Positions 16,103-46,223 of a stretch of DNA of 64,000 bases are shown in pieces (the first letter of the stretch is position 1; each line of letters begins with the position of its first letter). Under the pieces are notes generated by a model. That model had not been told where the DNA came from and ran no database searches. It saw only the letters and a list, made by a program, of their open reading frames with translations. The translations under genes were made by a program, and so were the position numbers. This DNA comes from a virus, in the IMG/VR virus record IMGVR_UViG_3300047494_000100, positions 1-64,000 of that record; one strand, written 5' to 3'.

Positions 16103-17089
16103 TTAAGTTGCTTTATGTCGCGTAATATAGGCGATCATATTTTGTATAATTGGGATTGAATCAAAGACTCTACCCAACGCAGTATTACATGAAGCACAAA
16201 TTAATCCGCGAATTGTCATGGTTGTGTGGCAATGGTCAACGGAAAGTCTTTGTTTTACTCCCCAGCGTTTTGATATTCTGGTTTCAGGTCTACCACATAT
16301 TTCACAAGGATGCTTAAGTCCAGTGCAGTTGTCTTGGAGATACTTAAGTTTGCTTTTGAAGTGGTAATGTATTTTAGTCGGACAGTGTGAGTGTTTTTGT
16401 AAGTAGTTTATTGCTGATTCTAAGAAGTTAATGTTTTCTTCCCAAAGACCAAGTGTTTGATTGCATGGTCTACAAAGCAAATCACGAAGCTTTTTTGTTT
16501 TGTGACAATGATCCATTGCAAGTCGAAGCGTCTTTTTACTTCTTTTACTAAATCCCGTTTCAGGCTTATTGCAAATCGCACACAGGCTGTTTTGAGCAGT
16601 GCGTTTTTCTAGATAGATTTTAGAATATGCATCAAGTGAAAGTCCTGTGTCTTTTAAAAGTTCACGAAATAAGATTCCATATTCTTTTAAAGAAGGTTTC
16701 AGCTTAATACGTTGCTGCCATCTTCTTGCATTCCACTCAGCTTCAGATTCATTTGGATCACGACGAATGTGTTCAACCCATTTATAATTATCTTTAGAAA
16801 ATGGCTTTGATCTATCTATTTTATAAAAATAGTGCTTTTTTGAAGGTCTTTCGCCAACATCTCTAACAAATTGCCAAAAATCATTGTGCCATTCTGGACA
16901 AAGACTTCCATAACCATGGCGTTCACGCCACACTTGGATAAGTGAGTGTTTAGTTTTACCAATATTTATTAGATCTGTTGTACCATGTCTGTACCATCTT
17001 TGATAATGATATGTACACCAACCTAGTGAGTCAATAGGTTTTCCGCAATTTTCAATTTTGCAGATTCCAATTATTTTCTTTCTCGGCAT
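16103..17089 (-). CDS. Homing endonuclease with two Endonuclease-VII/HNH modules
   Basis: CAICNKPE...LAMDHCHKTKKLRDLLCRPCNQTLG and CEICGRPE...LSVDHCHTTMTIRGLICASCNTALG. Confidence 0.8.
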   Translation of the reverse strand: MPRKKIIGICKIENCGKPIDSLGWCTYHYQRWYRHGTTDLINIGKTKHSLIQVWRERHGYGSLCPEWHNDFWQFVRDVGERPSKKHYFYKIDRSKPFSKDNYKWVEHIRRDPNESEAEWNARRWQQRIKLKPSLKEYGILFRELLKDTGLSLDAYSKIYLEKRTAQNSLCAICNKPETGFSKRSKKTLRLAMDHCHKTKKLRDLLCRPCNQTLGLWEENINFLESAINYLQKHSHCPTKIHYHFKSKLKYLQDNCTGLKHPCEICGRPETRISKRWGVKQRLSVDHCHTTMTIRGLICASCNTALGRVFDSIPIIQNMIAYITRHKAT

Positions 17090-17202: not shown

Positions 17203-18342
17203 TTAGATAGAGTCGCATACCGACACGATCCATTCCGGACGAACGTACAAGAACCCATAGAGCACATCTAAACGTGTAATCAACTGATCTGTACCAACGG
17301 TATAATCAGTGATCATGCGCATCGAGATGTTGTCGAAGGATTCACGTGCACCTTCCACAATGCCCTGCTGCGGGAGAACCAGATCCGCAGTAGCCATCGT
17401 GATAGCTTCCGGCGTATAGGCAATATTCTTACGGAATATGCTGCTGGCGGGAGTGGCTAACAGAATGGTGGCACCATTGACAGGCGAGCTGTCAACAGTC
17501 TGGTACTGAACCTGAGGGCCACCAGCAACGCCAGTAGCAGTCGGAACAATAGCCGGATAGATAGAGAGCGACGTTGCACCACTAGCAGCAGCAGCGGTCA
17601 GAACGAACTGACGCAGCTGACCAGTGGTCTGTTTAGTGATACGGTTCACGGCATTCACGTTCGCAATGGTGATGATATCACCGAGCGCCAGCGTGCCCGT
17701 AATCGCATTGACAGTGAGCGTTAAGCCCGTCTGGCCTGCGCCGTTCACCGTACCAGCGGAAAACGTTCCAGTCGTGTGCTTAAGCACCGTCTGGTCCATC
17801 ATCCACTCAAACCCAATGGCCTGCGCCATTGTGCCTGTGGTGTACTGACGCGAAATGTCAGTAATCGGGTTAAGCAGACCAGTCAGTGAACCAACGGTAC
17901 GTGCCTGGGTAAACGGATCCTGAACAATCTTCCTGCGTCCAGTAGGAGCAGAATTAACGTCCAGCGTCGCACCCGCGTTCAAGAACGTAGTAAGAATCGG
18001 GCTGATAATGTTGCCGTTGGAATCCGTGTTGGACACCAAGTTGCAAACACCACCGTCAACACCGCTCATGATGTTGGAAGCCACGGCTCCGGCCAGGTTG
18101 TTGATGCAAGGAGCAAGAATCCGCTCCGAATAATCATCCAAGCTCAGTGTGCGATCAACGGAGCTGAACGAAACGTCCACGCCCTGCTGCGTCGCCACAA
18201 CGAGTGTGGTAGACTGTTCGGTTGTATCCTGGATCTGTGCGGCTGCACCCGTACGAACGGTAAAGTCGTTAGGGAGACGGATACGAAGCTGGGAACCAAT
18301 TTTGGCACCAACCTTGGCATACGAGTCATCATCGAGTACTTT
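17203..18342 (-). CDS. Major capsid protein (P22 coat-like), exon 3
   Basis: KVLDDDSYAKVGAKIGSQLRIRLPNDF... is typical of the coat family but lacks the first ~24 residues. The track ORF can only start at TTG 18345, with TAA in frame just upstream. Confidence 0.8.
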   Translation of the reverse strand, partial: KVLDDDSYAKVGAKIGSQLRIRLPNDFTVRTGAAAQIQDTTEQSTTLVVATQQGVDVSFSSVDRTLSLDDYSERILAPCINNLAGAVASNIMSGVDGGVCNLVSNTDSNGNIISPILTTFLNAGATLDVNSAPTGRRKIVQDPFTQARTVGSLTGLLNPITDISRQYTTGTMAQAIGFEWMMDQTVLKHTTGTFSAGTVNGAGQTGLTLTVNAITGTLALGDIITIANVNAVNRITKQTTGQLRQFVLTAAAASGATSLSIYPAIVPTATGVAGGPQVQYQTVDSSPVNGATILLATPASSIFRKNIAYTPEAITMATADLVLPQQGIVEGARESFDNISMRMITDYTVGTDQLITRLDVLYGFLYVRPEWIVSVCDSI

Positions 18343-18621
18343 CAAGAAGCTTCGTTAAAACTTCTCCGCTTTTTAAAGCTGCTGTAAGTTTCCCTACAGA
18401 TAAGACTATATCATCATCTTTCGATGTTCTGTGCTTCGAGGCACTTGCCCCTACTCCCCGAAGGGATAGTCGTTGAACCTTCCGCAGTTAAGCGGCTCGG
18501 ATGCTGATTGTCCAATCCTAAATATTTTTAGCATTCACGTTTGCTTTTTAAAGCTGCGTTGTAGCTATTTAGGCTCTAAGGAGTTTCCAGCAGTTCTCAG
18601 AATTTACAACAGCAAATGACT
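18343..18621 (-). mobile_element. Group I intron A (minus strand), ~279 nt
   Basis: P1 is exon CAACAGU paired with GCUGUUG, with a U-G wobble at the splice site. Core reads GGUUCAACGACUA followed by a CCC-UUCG-GGG tetraloop hairpin. It ends in G before AAAGTA. Homologous to intron B, with compensatory changes. Confidence 0.65.
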
Positions 18622-18670
18622 ACTGTTGGTCAATATTCTGGATAACATATTCACAAATACTGACTTAATG
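18622..18670 (-). CDS. Major capsid protein exon 2 (49 nt)
   Basis: CATTAAGTCAGTATTTGTGAATATGTTATCCAGAATATTGACCAACAGT joins in frame to give ...IIKSVFVNMLSRILTNS-KVLDDD. The 5' boundary is approximate. Confidence 0.5.
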
Positions 18671-19100
18671 CCCTTATCCTTTAAGGCATTCAATTATCTT
18701 TATCGTTTATTGACAAAACACCAATGCTTAGAAGGTAGTGTTTTTCCAGAGACGGACGGCTTCACGCGTGATCATATTTCGGTAATTCAATAGGTTACGT
18801 TACTTCCTATCAGCCTTTCGGGCATCTATACATTTCTATATAGAGTAGACCATATCATCATTCTTTTTAGAATGCTCTGTGCTTCGGGACACTTGTCCCT
18901 ACTCTACTCACTTCCACCTTGCGGTGTGTTTTCGATGGTCGTTGAACCTTCACCCATACGGTGCTCGGCTGCGGGTTATCCAATATTTTGTTTTCTTAGA
19001 GCATTCACGCTTGCCTTTTCAAGCTACGTTGTAGCAACAAAATCTTTAGGAACTTCTCGCAATTCTCAGAGTTTTTTATCCTTACCACAAATATTAATAA
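18671..19100 (-). mobile_element. Group I intron B (minus strand), ~430 nt
   Basis: P1 is exon CUUACCAU paired with GUGGUAAG, with a terminal U-G. Core reads GGUUCAACGACCA followed by a CACC-GCAA-GGUG hairpin. The P8-like hairpin covaries between introns (CCGC/GCGG in A, CACC/GGUG in B). Confidence 0.6.
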
Positions 19101-19123
19101 ATGGTAAGTATACTATTAGCCAT
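19101..19123 (-). CDS. Major capsid protein exon 1 (23 nt, MANSILT-)
   Basis: ATGGCTAATAGTATACTTACCAT is preceded by AAAGGAAAC 8 nt upstream. MANS.LT is a typical coat N-terminus. In unspliced DNA a stop follows after 9 codons. Confidence 0.6.
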
Positions 19124-19297
19124 GTATTGTTTCCTTTATGCTGTTAGCCCAATGGGCTAAACAAGTGTTGATAAAAATAAAAATGAGAGACCAACAGCAG
19201 AAATAATTTTTAAAGAGCAGCAATCTGGTCTTTTTACACAGCGCCTATCTTGTGTGCTCAACGGCAAGCATGTCTTTTTTCACTGACAAGAAAGTGA

Positions 19298-19348: not shown

Positions 19349-19954
19349 ATGACAGCAAAGAGTCAGTATAGCGTGCCCGGAATTTATAAAATTACCAACA
19401 TTGTTTCCGGTAAAGCATATGTTGGAGGTACAGATAACGTACAAAAAAGATGGACAAAGCACAAATGGTTGTTGTGCCTTGGCCTGCACAAACTTAAAGC
19501 ACTTCAAGAAGATTGGAATAAAGAAGGTGCAAATAAGTTTGAATTCAATATTGTGTTACAATTGCCAAAATTGCCGAAAGCTGAATTTAAGCTGCTAAAA
19601 ACTGAAAAAGAAACAGAAGTTTTGGCAGCCACTCCGAACAACTATAATCGAACAATTGGAGCGGGAGATTTTGGATTTCGACTTTCAAATGACACCAAAA
19701 AGGAACTGTCCAAATTTAATAAGAAAAAATGGGACAACCCAGAATACAAAAAACGTTTATCTGAGATCCATATGAAAAAATGGGCAGATGGCGAATATAA
19801 AAGAAAGGCAACAAAAGAAACTCGAGAAAAACAAAGTTTAGCAAAAAAACTCTACTATGAAAAAACAGGAGGGATGAAAGAAGAAACTAAAGAAAAATTA
19901 AGCAGGATTCATCAGGCTCGAATTGCTCGAGCCAAAACAAAAGAACCCTCCTAA
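19349..19954 (+). CDS. GIY-YIG homing endonuclease (I-TevI-like, NUMOD3 repeats)
   Basis: PGIYKITNIVSGKAYVGGTDNVQKRWTKH, plus repeated S..TKEKLS-type motifs. On the opposite strand to all its neighbours. Confidence 0.85.
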   Translation: MTAKSQYSVPGIYKITNIVSGKAYVGGTDNVQKRWTKHKWLLCLGLHKLKALQEDWNKEGANKFEFNIVLQLPKLPKAEFKLLKTEKETEVLAATPNNYNRTIGAGDFGFRLSNDTKKELSKFNKKKWDNPEYKKRLSEIHMKKWADGEYKRKATKETREKQSLAKKLYYEKTGGMKEETKEKLSRIHQARIARAKTKEPS

Positions 19955-21364: not shown

Positions 21365-21440
21365 TGGTGCCTGAAGCAGGCTCTGCCCCTACCGCTTCCT
21401 GCTTACAAGGCAGGTACTCTACTGAATGAGTTATTCAGGC
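21365..21440 (-). tRNA. tRNA-Thr (anticodon UGU), non-canonical D and T loops
   Basis: Cloverleaf: GCCTGAA/TTCAGGC acceptor, ACTC/GAGT D stem, CCTGC-CTTGTAA-GCAGG anticodon arm, CCA encoded. The T loop is GGCAGAG and the D loop is ATTCAGTA. Confidence 0.6.
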
Positions 21441-21445
21441 AAGAA

Positions 21446-21519
21446 TGGCTTCCTCTCCACGGCTTGAACGTGAATCTCCAGAGCCAAAATCTGACGTGCT
21501 ACCATTACACCAAGAGGAA
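21446..21519 (-). tRNA. tRNA-Gln (UUG)
   Basis: TTCCTCT/AGAGGAA acceptor (U1:A72, G73), anticodon loop TTTTGGC, T loop TTCAAGC, CCA encoded. Confidence 0.75.
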
Positions 21520-21552
21520 GTAATGGAGTTATTGTCGGAAAATCAACTTAGG

Positions 21553-21623
21553 GGTGACGTAAGAGATTTGAACTCTTTCCAGCAAATTCACAATTTGACG
21601 TGCAGCCCATACACCAACGTCAC
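21553..21623 (-). tRNA. tRNA-His (GUG)
   Basis: GTGACGT/ACGTCAC acceptor, anticodon loop TTGTGAA, T arm AAGAG-TTCAAAT-CTCTT. No encoded G-1 seen. Confidence 0.6.
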
Positions 21624-21659
21624 ACCTAAATTGACTTAGGCTTTTGACGCGATGTCGAA

Positions 21660-21734
21660 TGGTCGGAATGGCAGGACTCGAACCTGCATAATCCTGGCCC
21701 CAAACCAGGCGAACAACCTTTATCCCACACTCCG
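21660..21734 (-). tRNA. tRNA-Pro (UGG)
   Basis: CGGAGTG/CATTCCG acceptor, CCTGG-TTTGGGG-CCAGG anticodon arm, GCAGG-TTCGAGT-CCTGC T arm, ACCA. Confidence 0.8.
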
Positions 21735-21782
21735 ATGGAATAGGTCGAGGTTCTGCAGTGTTCATAAAAGTTCTTTCATATT

Positions 21783-21859
21783 TGGTAGGTGCGGAAAGAT
21801 TTGAACTTTCAACTCCTAGATTTTAAGTCTAGTGCCTCTTCCTGTTGGGCCACACACCC
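21783..21859 (-). tRNA. tRNA with anticodon UAA (Leu by anticodon), short variable arm
   Basis: CTAGA-CTTAAAA-TCTAG anticodon arm, GAAAG-TTCAAAT-CTTTC T arm, A73-CCA. The variable region is only 5 nt. Confidence 0.6.
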
Positions 21860-21866
21860 GTAAAGG

Positions 21867-21943
21867 TGGTGGGCGTACTAGGACTTGAACCTAGAAACTC
21901 CGGAGTCTAAATCCGGCGACTTTACCAATTTGCCCATACGCCC
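21867..21943 (-). tRNA. tRNA with anticodon UAG (Leu by anticodon), short variable arm
   Basis: GGGCGTA/TACGCCC acceptor, CCGGA-TTTAGAC-TCCGG anticodon arm, CTAGG-TTCAAGT-CCTAG T arm, ACCA. Confidence 0.65.
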
Positions 21944-21974
21944 GAATTTTATAGTCCGAGTCGTAATCGCAAGT

Positions 21975-22060
21975 TGGTGGGGCAACTTGGATTTGCACCA
22001 AGGAACGCCGAAGCGGAGTGTTTTACAGACACCGTGCTTTGTCTACTTGCATACTGCCCC
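21975..22060 (-). tRNA. tRNA-Tyr (GUA), long variable arm
   Basis: Anticodon loop CTGTAAA, extra arm CCGCTTCGGCG, T arm CTTGG-TGCAAAT-CCAAG, ACCA. Confidence 0.75.
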
Positions 22061-39919: not shown

Positions 39920-40003
39920 ATGTCTCTCAGTTCAGTTATAGTGTTGGGTAGGCAGTAAGGATGACAATAGGCGTGATGTGACGCCTCGTTTTAGGTCGGG
40001 ATT

Positions 40004-40074
40004 GCCGAATCGAACGGCTCCTTCATACGCCACGCATGATGTGCTACCAGTACACCATCTCCCGCGCATGACTC
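40004..40074 (-). pseudogene. Degenerate tRNA-like element (Pro-like, anticodon position UGG)
   Basis: Cloverleaf-like: CGGGA/TCCCG acceptor, GTG..CAC D stem with GG, TCATG-CGTGGCG-TATGA arm, GCCG-TTCGATT-CGGC T arm. It has G33, C37, 2 acceptor mismatches and no CCA. Confidence 0.3.

Positions 40075-45419: not shown

Positions 45420-46223
<804 letters not shown>

What the first reader, a model, noticed from the sequence alone, without database searches (positions are those of the whole stretch)
17203..19123. Major capsid gene apparently split by two homologous group I introns within its first 72 coding nucleotides
The coat ORF lacks its N-terminus: TAA lies in frame just upstream, and the only available start is TTG. 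About 780 nt upstream there is a good SD followed by ATG GCT AAT AGT ATA CTT ACC AT (MANSILT, a typical coat N-terminus), which runs into a stop if left unspliced. The gap holds two ~70% similar structured elements on the minus strand. Each begins with a P1 hairpin in which exon bases pair to an internal guide and end in a U-G wobble (CUUACCAU/GUGGUAAG and CAACAGU/GCUGUUG). Each also carries a GGUUCAACGAC(U/C)A core segment resembling group I J8/7-P7, stable UUCG or GCAA tetraloop hairpins, and a hairpin with compensatory changes (CCGC/GCGG versus CACC/GGUG). Splicing after G residues at 18671 and 18343 joins 23 + 49 + 1140 nt in frame. The result is MANSILTIIKSVFVNMLSRILTNS-KVLDDDSYAKVG..., about 403 aa.
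Basis: partly seen in the sequence, partly recalled or inferred. Interest (0 to 1): 0.85.

Follow-up and report, generated by a model that had tools for sequence, protein, structure and literature searches.

The report
Phage coat gene with coreless mini-introns
A phage capsid gene is interrupted four times within its first 97 coding bases: by two ordinary self-splicing group I introns and by two 38- and 46-base "mini-introns" that keep a group I intron's guide sequences but have no ribozyme core, so they probably depend on the neighbouring intron to be spliced out.

Summary
The P22-type coat gene (minus strand) has lost its N-terminus to intervening RNA, and Rfam finds two complete group I introns (77 and 61 bits; cut-off 50). 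The exon map is wrong.

Intron-less homologues begin MANSILTINMITREAVRLWKNTNAFIQNIDQQYDDS. Reconstructing that sequence requires five exons:
- exon 1: 19123-19101
- exon 2: 18779-18737
- exon 3: 18690-18684 (7 nt)
- exon 4: 18645-18622
- exon 5: 18332-17203

The true acceptors are G18780 and G18333, not 18671 and 18343. The product is 408 aa and matches homologue P0011 at 44 of its first 45 residues.

Two further intervening sequences are 46 nt (18736-18691) and 38 nt (18683-18646), far too short for a catalytic core. Each has three things:
- a 7-bp P1 ending in U·G
- a P10 pairing and a terminal G
- a tail helix that abuts the downstream intron's P1

Ten such elements in seven independent assemblies are 96% paired, against 31-41% in slid controls, with many compensatory changes. 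All 11 variable exon sites between them are synonymous.

The most likely mechanism is that the adjacent full intron's core splices these elements. That is inferred, not shown. I found no precedent.

The parts
19132..19136 (-). Shine-Dalgarno AAGGA of the coat gene
   Evidence: Read. It lies 8 nt upstream of the ATG at 19123-19121.
19101..19123 (-). Exon 1 (23 nt), ATGGCTAATAGTATACTTACCAT, encoding MANSILT plus 2 nt of Ile8
   Evidence: Its last 8 nt, CUUACCAU (19108-19101), form P1 with GUGGUAAG (19088-19081).
18780..19100 (-). Intron 1: complete, ORF-less group I intron (321 nt)
   Evidence: Rfam RF00028, 77.3 bits, model positions 1-253. It has a P1 with U.G. P10 pairs AAAUAU (18779-18774) with AUAUUU (19094-19089). 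It ends in G18780. Relatives L003, L162 and L287 carry it at the same site with compensatory P1/P10 changes.
18737..18779 (-). Exon 2 (43 nt), A AAT ATG ... AAC ACT, encoding (I)NMITREAVRLWKNT.
   Evidence: tblastn gives a 100% match to residues 9-22 of the intron-less homologue P0011. Spliced translation.
18691..18736 (-). Mini-intron a (46 nt, 30% GC) with no catalytic core
   Evidence: P1 pairs AAACACU (18743-18737) with GGUGUUU (18722-18716), with U.G at the splice site. P10 pairs AAUGC (18690-18686) with GCAUU (18727-18723). Its tail GUCAAUA (18714-18708) pairs with UAUUGAC (18635-18629). It ends in G18691. Orthologues occur in L002, L003, L162 and L163 with compensatory changes.
18684..18690 (-). 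Exon 3 (7 nt), AATGCCT, encoding Asn-Ala plus the first base of Phe
   Evidence: Needed to restore ...KNT-NAF-IQN.... It varies only synonymously in relatives.
18646..18683 (-). Mini-intron b (38 nt, 32% GC) with no catalytic core
   Evidence: P1 pairs AAUGCCU (18690-18684) with GGGCAUU (18673-18667), with U.G at the splice site. P10 pairs UUAUCC (18645-18640) with GGAUAA (18679-18674). Its tail GUCAGUAUUU (18664-18655) pairs with GAAUAUUGAC (18638-18629). It ends in G18646. Orthologues occur in L004, L162, L163 and L287 with compensatory changes. The hairpins are predicted in the MFE fold.
18622..18645 (-). Exon 4 (24 nt), TTATCCAGAATATTGACCAACAGT, encoding (F)IQNIDQQ plus the first base of Tyr
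Evidence: Every difference from relatives is a synonymous third-position change.
18333..18621 (-). Last intron (Q|Y site): complete, ORF-less group I intron (289 nt). Candidate catalyst for the two mini-introns.
   Evidence: Rfam RF00028, 60.9 bits; the model mistook mini-b's hairpin for P1. The true P1 pairs CAACAGU (18628-18622) with GCUGUUG (18613-18607). P10 pairs GAUGAC (18330-18325) with GUCAUU (18620-18615). It ends in G18333. P1 and P10 covary in L002, L003, L004, L162, L163 and L287.
17203..18332 (-). Exon 5 (1130 nt including the TAA stop): the body of the P22-type coat protein, beginning (Y)DDSYAKVGAKIG
   Evidence: Pfam PF11651, E 1e-31, profile positions 1-417 of 423. Homologues. 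GC is 53%, against 40-42% in the full introns and 30-32% in the mini-introns.
19349..19954 (+). Free-standing GIY-YIG homing-endonuclease-like ORF just upstream of the coat gene, on the opposite strand
   Evidence: Pfam PF01541, E 4e-6. The same position is occupied in L001 and L162.
16103..17089 (-). Free-standing ORF with two Endonuclease VII (HNH-like) domains, just downstream of the coat gene
   Evidence: Pfam PF02945, E 1e-32, two matched stretches. The same synteny occurs in L001, L161, L162, L163 and L287.

Best explanation
The coat gene is a five-exon gene (23+43+7+24+1130 nt, giving 408 aa) whose first 97 coding nucleotides carry four intervening sequences.

Two of them (19100-18780 and 18621-18333) are complete, ORF-less, phage-type group I introns. 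They should splice in the usual way: P1 with a U.G wobble, attack by exogenous G, then attack at the terminal G guided by P10.

The other two (18736-18691 and 18683-18646) are 'guide-only' derivatives of group I introns. Each keeps an internal guide that pairs with its 5' exon (P1, ending in U.G) and with its 3' exon (P10). Each keeps a terminal G. Each has a tail that pairs with exon 4 directly next to the P1 of the downstream full intron. Neither has P3-P9.

Shown here: these elements exist, they are conserved with compensatory changes, and removing them exactly at U|...G| restores an invariant peptide.

Inferred: their P1/P10 modules, tethered at the base of the full intron's own P1, dock one after another into that intron's catalytic core and are excised by the same two transesterifications. 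The likely order is mini-b, then mini-a, then the full intron itself.

Their likely origin is loss of redundant cores in a tandem array of group I introns. Relatives carry arrays of five full introns, and one relative has a roughly 247-nt intron at exactly the mini-b site.
For: - Two Rfam group I hits lie above the gathering score, and the two introns are 74% identical end to end.
- Intron-less homologues define the N-terminus.
- The five-exon model gives 1227 nt in frame. The first 45 residues match P0011 at 44 positions.
- Mini-introns occur at the same two sites in seven independent assemblies.
- All 10 have U.G at the 5' splice site, all 10 end in G, and in all 10 the linker between guide and tail helix is 1-3 nt.
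- P1+P10+tail helix: 96.2% of 210 cells are paired, against 31-41% with slid partners. Twelve pairs change on both sides. 0 of 500 shuffles reach the observed score.
- Examples of compensation: AAACACU/GGUGUUU versus GAACACU/GGUGUUC; AAUGCCU/GGGCAUU versus AAUGCUU/GAGCAUU versus AACGCAU/GUGCGUU; UUAUCC/GGAUAA versus UCAUCC/GGAUGA.
- All 11 variable sites in spliced exons 3+4 across 7 loci are synonymous third positions, and the peptide NAFIQNIDQQY is invariant.
- The MFE fold shows P1a, P1b, the tail hairpin and the full intron's P1 as four consecutive hairpins.
- Every mini-intron lies 24-31 nt upstream of an Rfam-detectable full intron. The tail helix abuts that intron's P1 with no gap in all 7 loci (and reading).
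- L009 has a roughly 247-nt intron at exactly the mini-b site. L009 and L011 carry 4-5 full introns separated by 18-27-nt exons.
- Engineered group I ribozymes can excise introns from other RNAs (PMC4094466, PMC2532722; abstracts listed).
Against: - There are no RNA or protein data, so splicing of any of the four elements is inferred.
- Catalysis by the neighbouring core rests only on co-occurrence, proximity and architecture.
- All seven loci belong to one phage clade (83-91% coat identity), so co-occurrence with the full intron could reflect shared ancestry.
- I registered the constructs used for pair counting by hand from these same sequences. That inflates 'cells paired', although it does not create the compensatory changes.
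- P1 of mini-b and P10 of mini-a both use exon 3, so a strict order of events is required.
- I found no natural precedent for a core-less group I-type intron.
Confidence: 0.6

Rival explanations
1. The mini-introns are real RNA-level intervening sequences, but something other than the adjacent intron removes them. Candidates are intron 1, a free excised intron acting in trans, a ribozyme encoded elsewhere in the phage or host, or protein enzymes (an endonuclease plus an RNA ligase using the guide helices as a splint).
For: The junction, covariation and synonymous-site evidence shows that the elements are removed, not what removes them. The window has a second full intron core. About 15 kb of the 79-kb source contig is not in the window.
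Against: L002 and L163 have mini-introns but no intron 1. The invariant U.G and terminal G are signatures of group I chemistry rather than of protein endonucleases. The conserved tail helix that abuts the downstream intron's P1 has no obvious role in these alternatives. Only two group I cores are detectable in 64 kb, even at relaxed thresholds.
Confidence: 0.22
2. One reading: only two introns, with acceptors after G18671 and G18343, exons of 23+49+1140 nt, and the product MANSILTIIKSVFVNMLSRILTNSKVLDDDSY... (403 aa).
For: The model is in frame in this window, and both proposed acceptors follow a G.
Against: It discards a 43-nt segment that encodes 14 residues identical to homologues. The middle peptide matches no homologue. 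Its frame contains stops or is unconserved in relatives. It ignores the P10 pairings and the homologous 3' ends of the two introns. The Rfam core of intron 1 ends at 18826.
Confidence: 0.02
3. The short elements are dead remnants. Either the gene is a pseudogene, or the coat protein is made from the TTG at 18345 without its N-terminal arm.
For: Gene callers annotate only the 380-aa TTG ORF (P0001/P0002). The elements have no core.
Against: The remnants would not then keep compensatory base pairing with the exons, U.G and a terminal G in 10 of 10 cases. Exons 2-4 would not show exclusively synonymous change. The arrangement persists in seven assemblies from several projects. All homologues keep the N-terminal 33 residues.
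Confidence: 0.05
4. Ribosomes hop over the 38-75-nt gaps (translational bypassing, as in T4 gene 60).
For: The gap sizes resemble the 50-nt gene 60 gap (from memory). Stop codons occur early in mini-a, and hairpins sit at the gap starts.
Against: No locus has matched take-off and landing codons. For mini-a the take-off would be ACU, while the codon before the 3' exon is UUG, GUG or UAG. The mini-b junction lies inside the Phe codon. Two hops 7 nt apart would be needed. Bypassing does not explain the pairing to both exons, the U.G or the terminal G.
Confidence: 0.03

Closest known systems
Phage group I introns (Rfam RF00028), such as those of T4-like, Twort-like and SPO1-like phages
   Same: The two full elements have all the parts P1-P10 and pass the Rfam threshold. 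Their core is 68-78% similar (listed hits) to sequences in hundreds of phage genomes, including one under a 'major capsid protein' annotation in Bacillus phage SP-15.
   Different: They are ORF-less and appear to lack P2. They sit 3 codons from the... no, 23 nt and 97 nt into the coding sequence of a P22-type coat gene.
Multi-intron phage genes. [quoted passage not shown]
   Same: Several group I introns in one late or structural gene, separated by short exons. Cross-talk between neighbouring introns' splice sites is implied by the 'exon skipping' in the Twort title.
   Different: As far as described, every intervening sequence in those cases is a full intron. Here two of the four have no core, and one exon is only 7 nt.
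Engineered trans-acting group I ribozymes: spliceozymes (PMC4094466) and trans-excision-splicing (PMC2532722)
   Same: A group I core removes an internal segment from an RNA that has no core of its own and ligates the flanks. P1- and P10-type helices define the sites.
   Different: Those are artificial, and the guide sequences sit on the ribozyme. Here the guides sit on the excised segment, the arrangement is natural, and it is in cis.
Naturally split (trans-spliced) group I introns of organelles (from memory, not checked here)
   Same: The intron pieces are not self-sufficient and must associate with another RNA to splice.
   Different: In those cases two halves reassemble one core. Here a complete neighbouring intron would serve extra substrates.
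Non-autonomous derivatives of other mobile elements, such as degenerate group II/III introns and MITEs (from memory)
   Same: The catalytic or coding part is lost and only the recognition ends are kept, so the element depends on an autonomous relative.
   Different: I found no description of this for group I introns.
Collaborative or trans homing by free-standing homing endonucleases next to ORF-less introns (review PMC3984707)
   Same: ORF-less introns flanked by free-standing GIY-YIG and Endonuclease VII-type genes, with conserved synteny in relatives.

Membership tests
Group I intron (RF00028): the two full elements 19100-18780 and 18621-18333 | Covariance-model score at or above the curated threshold, covering the P3-P9 core | tested here: met
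   77.3 and 60.9 bits against a gathering score of 50, model positions 1-253.
Group I intron: the two full elements | P1 between the 5' exon and the internal guide, with U.G at the 5' splice site | tested here: met
   CUUACCAU/GUGGUAAG and CAACAGU/GCUGUUG. Compensatory variants in relatives: CUUACUAU/GUAGUAAG, CAGCAGU/GCUGCUG, CAACAAU/GUUGUUG.
Group I intron: the two full elements | Terminal G, P10 with the 3' exon, and exon ligation that restores the gene | tested here: met
   Terminal G18780 with AAAUAU/AUAUUU, and terminal G18333 with GAUGAC/GUCAUU. P10 covaries in relatives (AAACAU/GUGUUU, GACGAU/AUCGUC). The spliced protein matches homologues.
Group I intron: the two full elements | Self-splicing with guanosine and Mg2+ | not testable with these tools
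   Needs an in vitro transcription and splicing assay.
Group I intron: the mini-introns 18736-18691 and 18683-18646 | P1 with U.G, P10 and a terminal G | tested here: met
   10 of 10 elements in 7 loci. 96% of cells are paired, with compensatory changes.
Group I intron: the mini-introns | Catalytic core P3-P9 with a G-binding site | tested here: not met
   The elements are 35-75 nt in total, and P1/P10/tail segments take up most of that length. There is no separate Rfam hit even at E<=0.05. They are therefore not filed as self-splicing group I introns.
Translational bypass element (T4 gene 60 type) | Matched take-off and landing codons flanking the gap, with a stop codon directly after take-off | tested here: not met
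   No matched codons in any locus, and the mini-b junction lies within a codon.
Bulge-helix-bulge (tRNA-type) intron | Both splice sites in 3-nt bulges separated by a 4-bp helix | tested here: not met
   The 5' site is at the loop end of a 7-bp helix. The 3' site is in a hairpin loop.
P22_CoatProtein (PF11651) | Pfam profile match over the full length | tested here: met
The five-exon product is 44/45 identical to P0011 at the N-terminus.
Free-standing homing endonucleases (GIY-YIG; Endonuclease VII/HNH) | Catalytic-domain profile match | tested here: met
   PF01541 E 4e-6 and PF02945 E 1e-32, the latter with two domains. Cleavage specificity was not tested.

The most novel reading that the evidence does not exclude
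The 38-75-nt elements are a natural class of non-autonomous group I introns. Only the guide (P1/P10), a terminal G and a tethering helix remain. A single neighbouring group I ribozyme splices several such modules in turn before removing itself, making it a natural multi-substrate 'spliceozyme'.
Probability: 0.5. Interest if true: 0.9.

Novelty: new variant of a known kind. Interest (0 to 1): 0.8.

Why it matters
Group I introns are defined by splicing themselves. An intervening sequence that keeps only the guide and relies on a neighbour's core would show three things:
- Group I ribozymes can act naturally on substrates other than themselves.
- Intron arrays can decay into parasites of their own relatives.
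- Intervening sequences as short as 35-46 nt, with a 7-nt exon between them, can hide in bacterial-virus genes. No intron model or gene caller finds them: every database entry for this coat protein is truncated or mis-started.

It also gives a compact natural design for ribozyme-mediated excision of short RNA segments. Practically, it means phage structural genes in metagenomes may be far more fragmented than their annotations suggest.

Tried and rejected
Searches that led nowhere:
- Megablast of the locus against 50,697 phage records found no match, so the phage has no close sequenced relative there.
- Exact look-up of the annotated 380-aa product found no contig on record. The cluster listing gave no name or accession.
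- DNA-pattern scans for further mini-introns: AAGGATAAGNGCRTTA was too unspecific. The mini-a pattern hit one unrelated GC-rich contig. A specific mini-b pattern found nothing in IMG/VR and six chance hits in GTDB genomes, none with coat motifs.
- The contigs L161, L284, L285 and L085 start inside the last intron and are uninformative. The contig for P0041 has no DNA on file.
- Literature searches for core-less, miniature or non-autonomous group I introns found nothing relevant. The Twort 1999 and S. thermophilus 2000 papers are not held.

Interim models for the 84-nt gap between exons 2 and 4 that I rejected:
- One element ACCU|...AUAUG|. It lacks a P1 and makes the protein one residue short.
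The corresponding acceptor position in L004 is A rather than G.
- Mini-a alone with the read-through peptide NALKDKGIKSVFVNMLSRILTNS-KVL. That frame has stops in L162, L163 and L004.
- A 1-nt sequencing error. This became unnecessary once the 7-nt exon was recognised.

The polymerase A gene looked possibly split in Pfam but is one intact ORF.
Full report
**What is in the sequence**

On the minus strand, a good Shine-Dalgarno (AAGGA, 19136-19132) precedes ATGGCTAATAGTATACTTACCAT (19123-19101), which runs into a stop. The long coat ORF (17203-18345) begins only at a TTG, with an in-frame TAA four codons upstream. Pfam identifies the protein as P22_CoatProtein.

Rfam finds two group I introns above the curated threshold: 19109-18826 (77.3 bits) and 18693-18382 (60.9 bits). 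No other group I core appears in the 64-kb window, even at relaxed thresholds. The two introns are 74% identical over aligned positions, along their whole lengths and including their 3' ends.

A search of 5.8 billion proteins returned many relatives with 64-91% identity. The full-length, intron-less ones all begin M(A/S)NS(I/L)LTINMITREAVRLWKNTNAFIQNIDQQYDDS(F/Y)AKVGAKIG.

The window does encode the expected residues, but in pieces:
- (I)NMITREAVRLWKNT at 18779-18737.
- NA(F) at 18690-18684.
- (Y)DDSYAKVG from 18332 onward.

Joining 19123-19101, 18779-18737, 18690-18684, 18645-18622 and 18332-17203 gives 1227 nt in frame and a 408-aa protein. Its first 45 residues match P0011 at 44 positions.

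**The two full introns**

Intron 1 (19100-18780, 321 nt):
- P1 is CUUACCAU/GUGGUAAG.
- P10 is AAAUAU/AUAUUU.
- It ends in G18780.

The last intron (18621-18333, 289 nt):
- P1 is CAACAGU/GCUGUUG.
- P10 is GAUGAC/GUCAUU.
- It ends in G18333.

Relatives carry the same introns at the same sites with compensatory changes:
- Intron 1: CUUACUAU/GUAGUAAG and AAACAU/GUGUUU in L287.
- Last intron P1: CAGCAGU/GCUGCUG, CAACAAU/GUUGUUG and CAGCAAU/GUUGCUG.
- Last intron P10: GAUGAU/GUCAUC and GACGAU/AUCGUC.

The acceptors are therefore G18780 and G18333, not 18671 and 18343. The cores resemble introns in hundreds of sequenced phages. On their own these two elements are ordinary new members of a known family.

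**The unexpected part: two mini-introns**

Two intervening sequences remain: 46 nt (18736-18691, 'mini-a') and 38 nt (18683-18646, 'mini-b'). They are separated by a 7-nt exon. They are AU-rich (30-32% GC, against 53% in the exon). Mini-a carries an in-frame stop. Mini-b is not a multiple of three, so leaving it in shifts the reading frame. Both are far too short for a P3-P9 core.

Each nevertheless has group I-style guides:
- Mini-a: P1 is AAACACU/GGUGUUU, with U.G at the splice site. P10 is AAUGC/GCAUU. It ends in G.
- Mini-b: P1 is AAUGCCU/GGGCAUU, with U.G at the splice site. P10 is UUAUCC/GGAUAA. It ends in G.
- A tail segment in each (GUCAAUA in mini-a, GUCAGUAUUU in mini-b) pairs with the same stretch of exon 4 (UAUUGAC). 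That stretch ends exactly where the P1 of the downstream full intron begins.

The minimum-free-energy fold of 18779-18600 shows P1a, P1b, the tail hairpin (with mini-b's 3' splice site in its loop) and the full intron's P1 as four consecutive hairpins.

**Comparative support**

The same elements occur at the same two sites in other assemblies:
- L002/L005 (JGI): mini-a only, 55 nt.
- L003 (Logan): mini-a only, 53 nt.
- L004 (Logan): mini-b, 56 nt; the contig begins just upstream of it.
- L162 (Logan): both, 75 and 37 nt.
- L163 (JGI): both, 43 and 35 nt.
- L287/L288 (ENA): mini-b only, 44 nt.

All ten elements have U.G at the 5' site, a terminal G, and a 1-3-nt linker between guide and tail helix. 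On constructs registered by hand, P1+P10+tail helix form standard pairs in 96.2% of 210 cells. Slid controls give 31-41%. Twelve pairs change on both sides. No shuffle out of 500 reaches the observed covariation (P1+P10 alone).

Compensation occurs within each site:
- Mini-a P1: GAACACU/GGUGUUC.
- Mini-a P10: AACGCC/GGCGUU.
- Mini-b P1: AAUGCUU/GAGCAUU and AACGCAU/GUGCGUU.
- Mini-b P10: UCAUCC/GGAUGA.
- Tail helix: AUCUAUAU/AUAUAGAU and AUCGAUGU/ACAUCGAU.

After removing the minis, the 33 nt spanning exons 3 and 4 plus 2 nt encode NAFIQNIDQQY in all seven loci. All 11 variable sites are synonymous third positions. The other two frames are unconserved or contain stops.

These data show that the elements are maintained by selection and are absent from the translated message.

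**How they are probably removed (inferred)**

Pairing to both exons, the U.G wobble and the terminal G are hallmarks of group I chemistry, but the elements have no core.

Every mini-intron found lies 24-31 nt upstream of an Rfam-detectable full intron at the Q|Y site. L002 and L163 lack intron 1, so intron 1 is not required. Full introns at the Q|Y site also exist without minis (L011).

In all seven loci the tail helix abuts the full intron's P1 with no unpaired base. This places the mini's P1 at the point where the resident P1 is hinged to the core.

The simplest mechanism is that the mini P1/P10 modules dock in turn into the neighbour's active site and undergo the usual two transesterifications. 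An order is implied. Mini-b's P1 and mini-a's P10 both use exon 3, and both tails use the same exon-4 segment. So mini-b should go first, then mini-a, then the full intron.

Engineered ribozymes that excise segments from other RNAs show the chemistry is feasible (PMC4094466, PMC2532722). [quoted passage not shown]

**Origin and context**

Relatives L009 and L011 carry four or five full group I introns in this same gene, separated by 18-27-nt exons. L009 has a roughly 247-nt intron exactly at the mini-b site, and L001 has one 1 nt away. Loss of redundant cores in such arrays is a plausible origin.

The coat gene is flanked by free-standing GIY-YIG and double Endonuclease VII genes, here and in relatives. 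This resembles collaborative homing (PMC3984707). A short spliceable insertion would also protect a target site from cleavage. That last point is speculation.

The window is from a roughly 79-kb podovirus-like phage with a P22-type portal, a family A polymerase and a tRNA cluster.

**Rivals**

- Pseudogene or truncated coat. This is contradicted by the covariation and the purely synonymous change.
- Translational bypassing. There are no matched take-off and landing codons, and one junction lies within a codon.
It is contradicted by homologues, by P10 and by the Rfam core boundaries.
- Removal by another ribozyme or by proteins. This cannot be excluded and is the main alternative to neighbour catalysis.

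**Novelty and verdict**

Multiple group I introns in phage capsid genes are known (PMC7886860, PMC3706429). Searches of the held literature found no description of core-less, guide-only group I-type introns.

What is actually there is more unusual than proposed. The structural and evolutionary evidence for the mini-introns is strong. The catalytic mechanism is a well-motivated inference that needs the experiments listed under next steps.

Noticed in passing
window 59653-60960 (-) and 61038-61260 (-): A TROVE/Ro60-like ORF (Pfam PF05731, PF25045). Just upstream is a weak tRNA-like Rfam hit (61038-61160, 32.8 bits). The region also holds a duplicated motif (GATCTTTCC...ACTGGCGCAGAA.AG.GTTACTTA followed by GGTTCGAATCC). 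These may be phage-encoded Y-RNA/YrlA-like RNAs paired with a Ro protein.
   Followed up: partly
L009 2914-4034 and L011 3926-5030 (also L011 2565-2875): Relatives of this coat gene carry four consecutive full group I introns near the C-terminus plus one near the N-terminus. The exons between them are only about 18-27 nt (YNVSTDQ, FITRLD, ILYG...). This is an unusually dense intron array.
   Followed up: partly
L009 1644-1889; L001 2719-3001: Intron-sized insertions at exactly the mini-b site (L009: AACGCGT|...CATG|TTCTCC) or 1 nt from it (L001). The L009 intron is below the Rfam gathering score, although it has the usual 3' motifs. The L001 intron scores 85.6 bits.
   Followed up: partly
window 16103-17089 (-) and 19349-19954 (+): Free-standing homing-endonuclease-like genes bracket the coat gene: a double Endonuclease VII gene and a GIY-YIG gene. 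The same arrangement recurs in L001, L161, L162, L163 and L287. Their target sites are unknown.
   Followed up: no
window 19144-19160 (-): The perfect palindrome TTAGCCCATTGGGCTAA lies just upstream of the coat Shine-Dalgarno. Covarying versions occur in L001 (TTAGCAATAATGCTAA), L163 (TTAGCAATTATGCTAA) and L003 (TTAGTGATTTCACTAA). This looks like a conserved hairpin of unknown role in the scaffold-coat intergenic region.
   Followed up: no
window 21446-22060 (-) and 39994-40065 (-): A cluster of six tRNA genes (Gln, His, Pro, Leu-UAA, Leu-UAG, Tyr) and a separate second tRNA-Pro(UGG). Rfam additionally called a tRNA at 21368-21440 that ARAGORN did not report.
   Followed up: no
window 18382-18693 (-): The Rfam alignment of the second intron took mini-b's P1 hairpin (AAUGCCUUA...UAAGGGCAUU) as the intron's P1 and treated exon 4 plus the true P1 as an insertion. 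Automatic intron boundaries here would therefore swallow a real exon. Skipping exon 4 (24 nt) would also stay in frame, so an alternative product lacking FIQNIDQQ is conceivable.
   Followed up: partly
window 45497-45754 (-): A sub-threshold Rfam match to isrG (53 bits, against a gathering score of 100) lies inside ORF 45420-46223. It is probably coding-sequence similarity rather than an sRNA.
   Followed up: no
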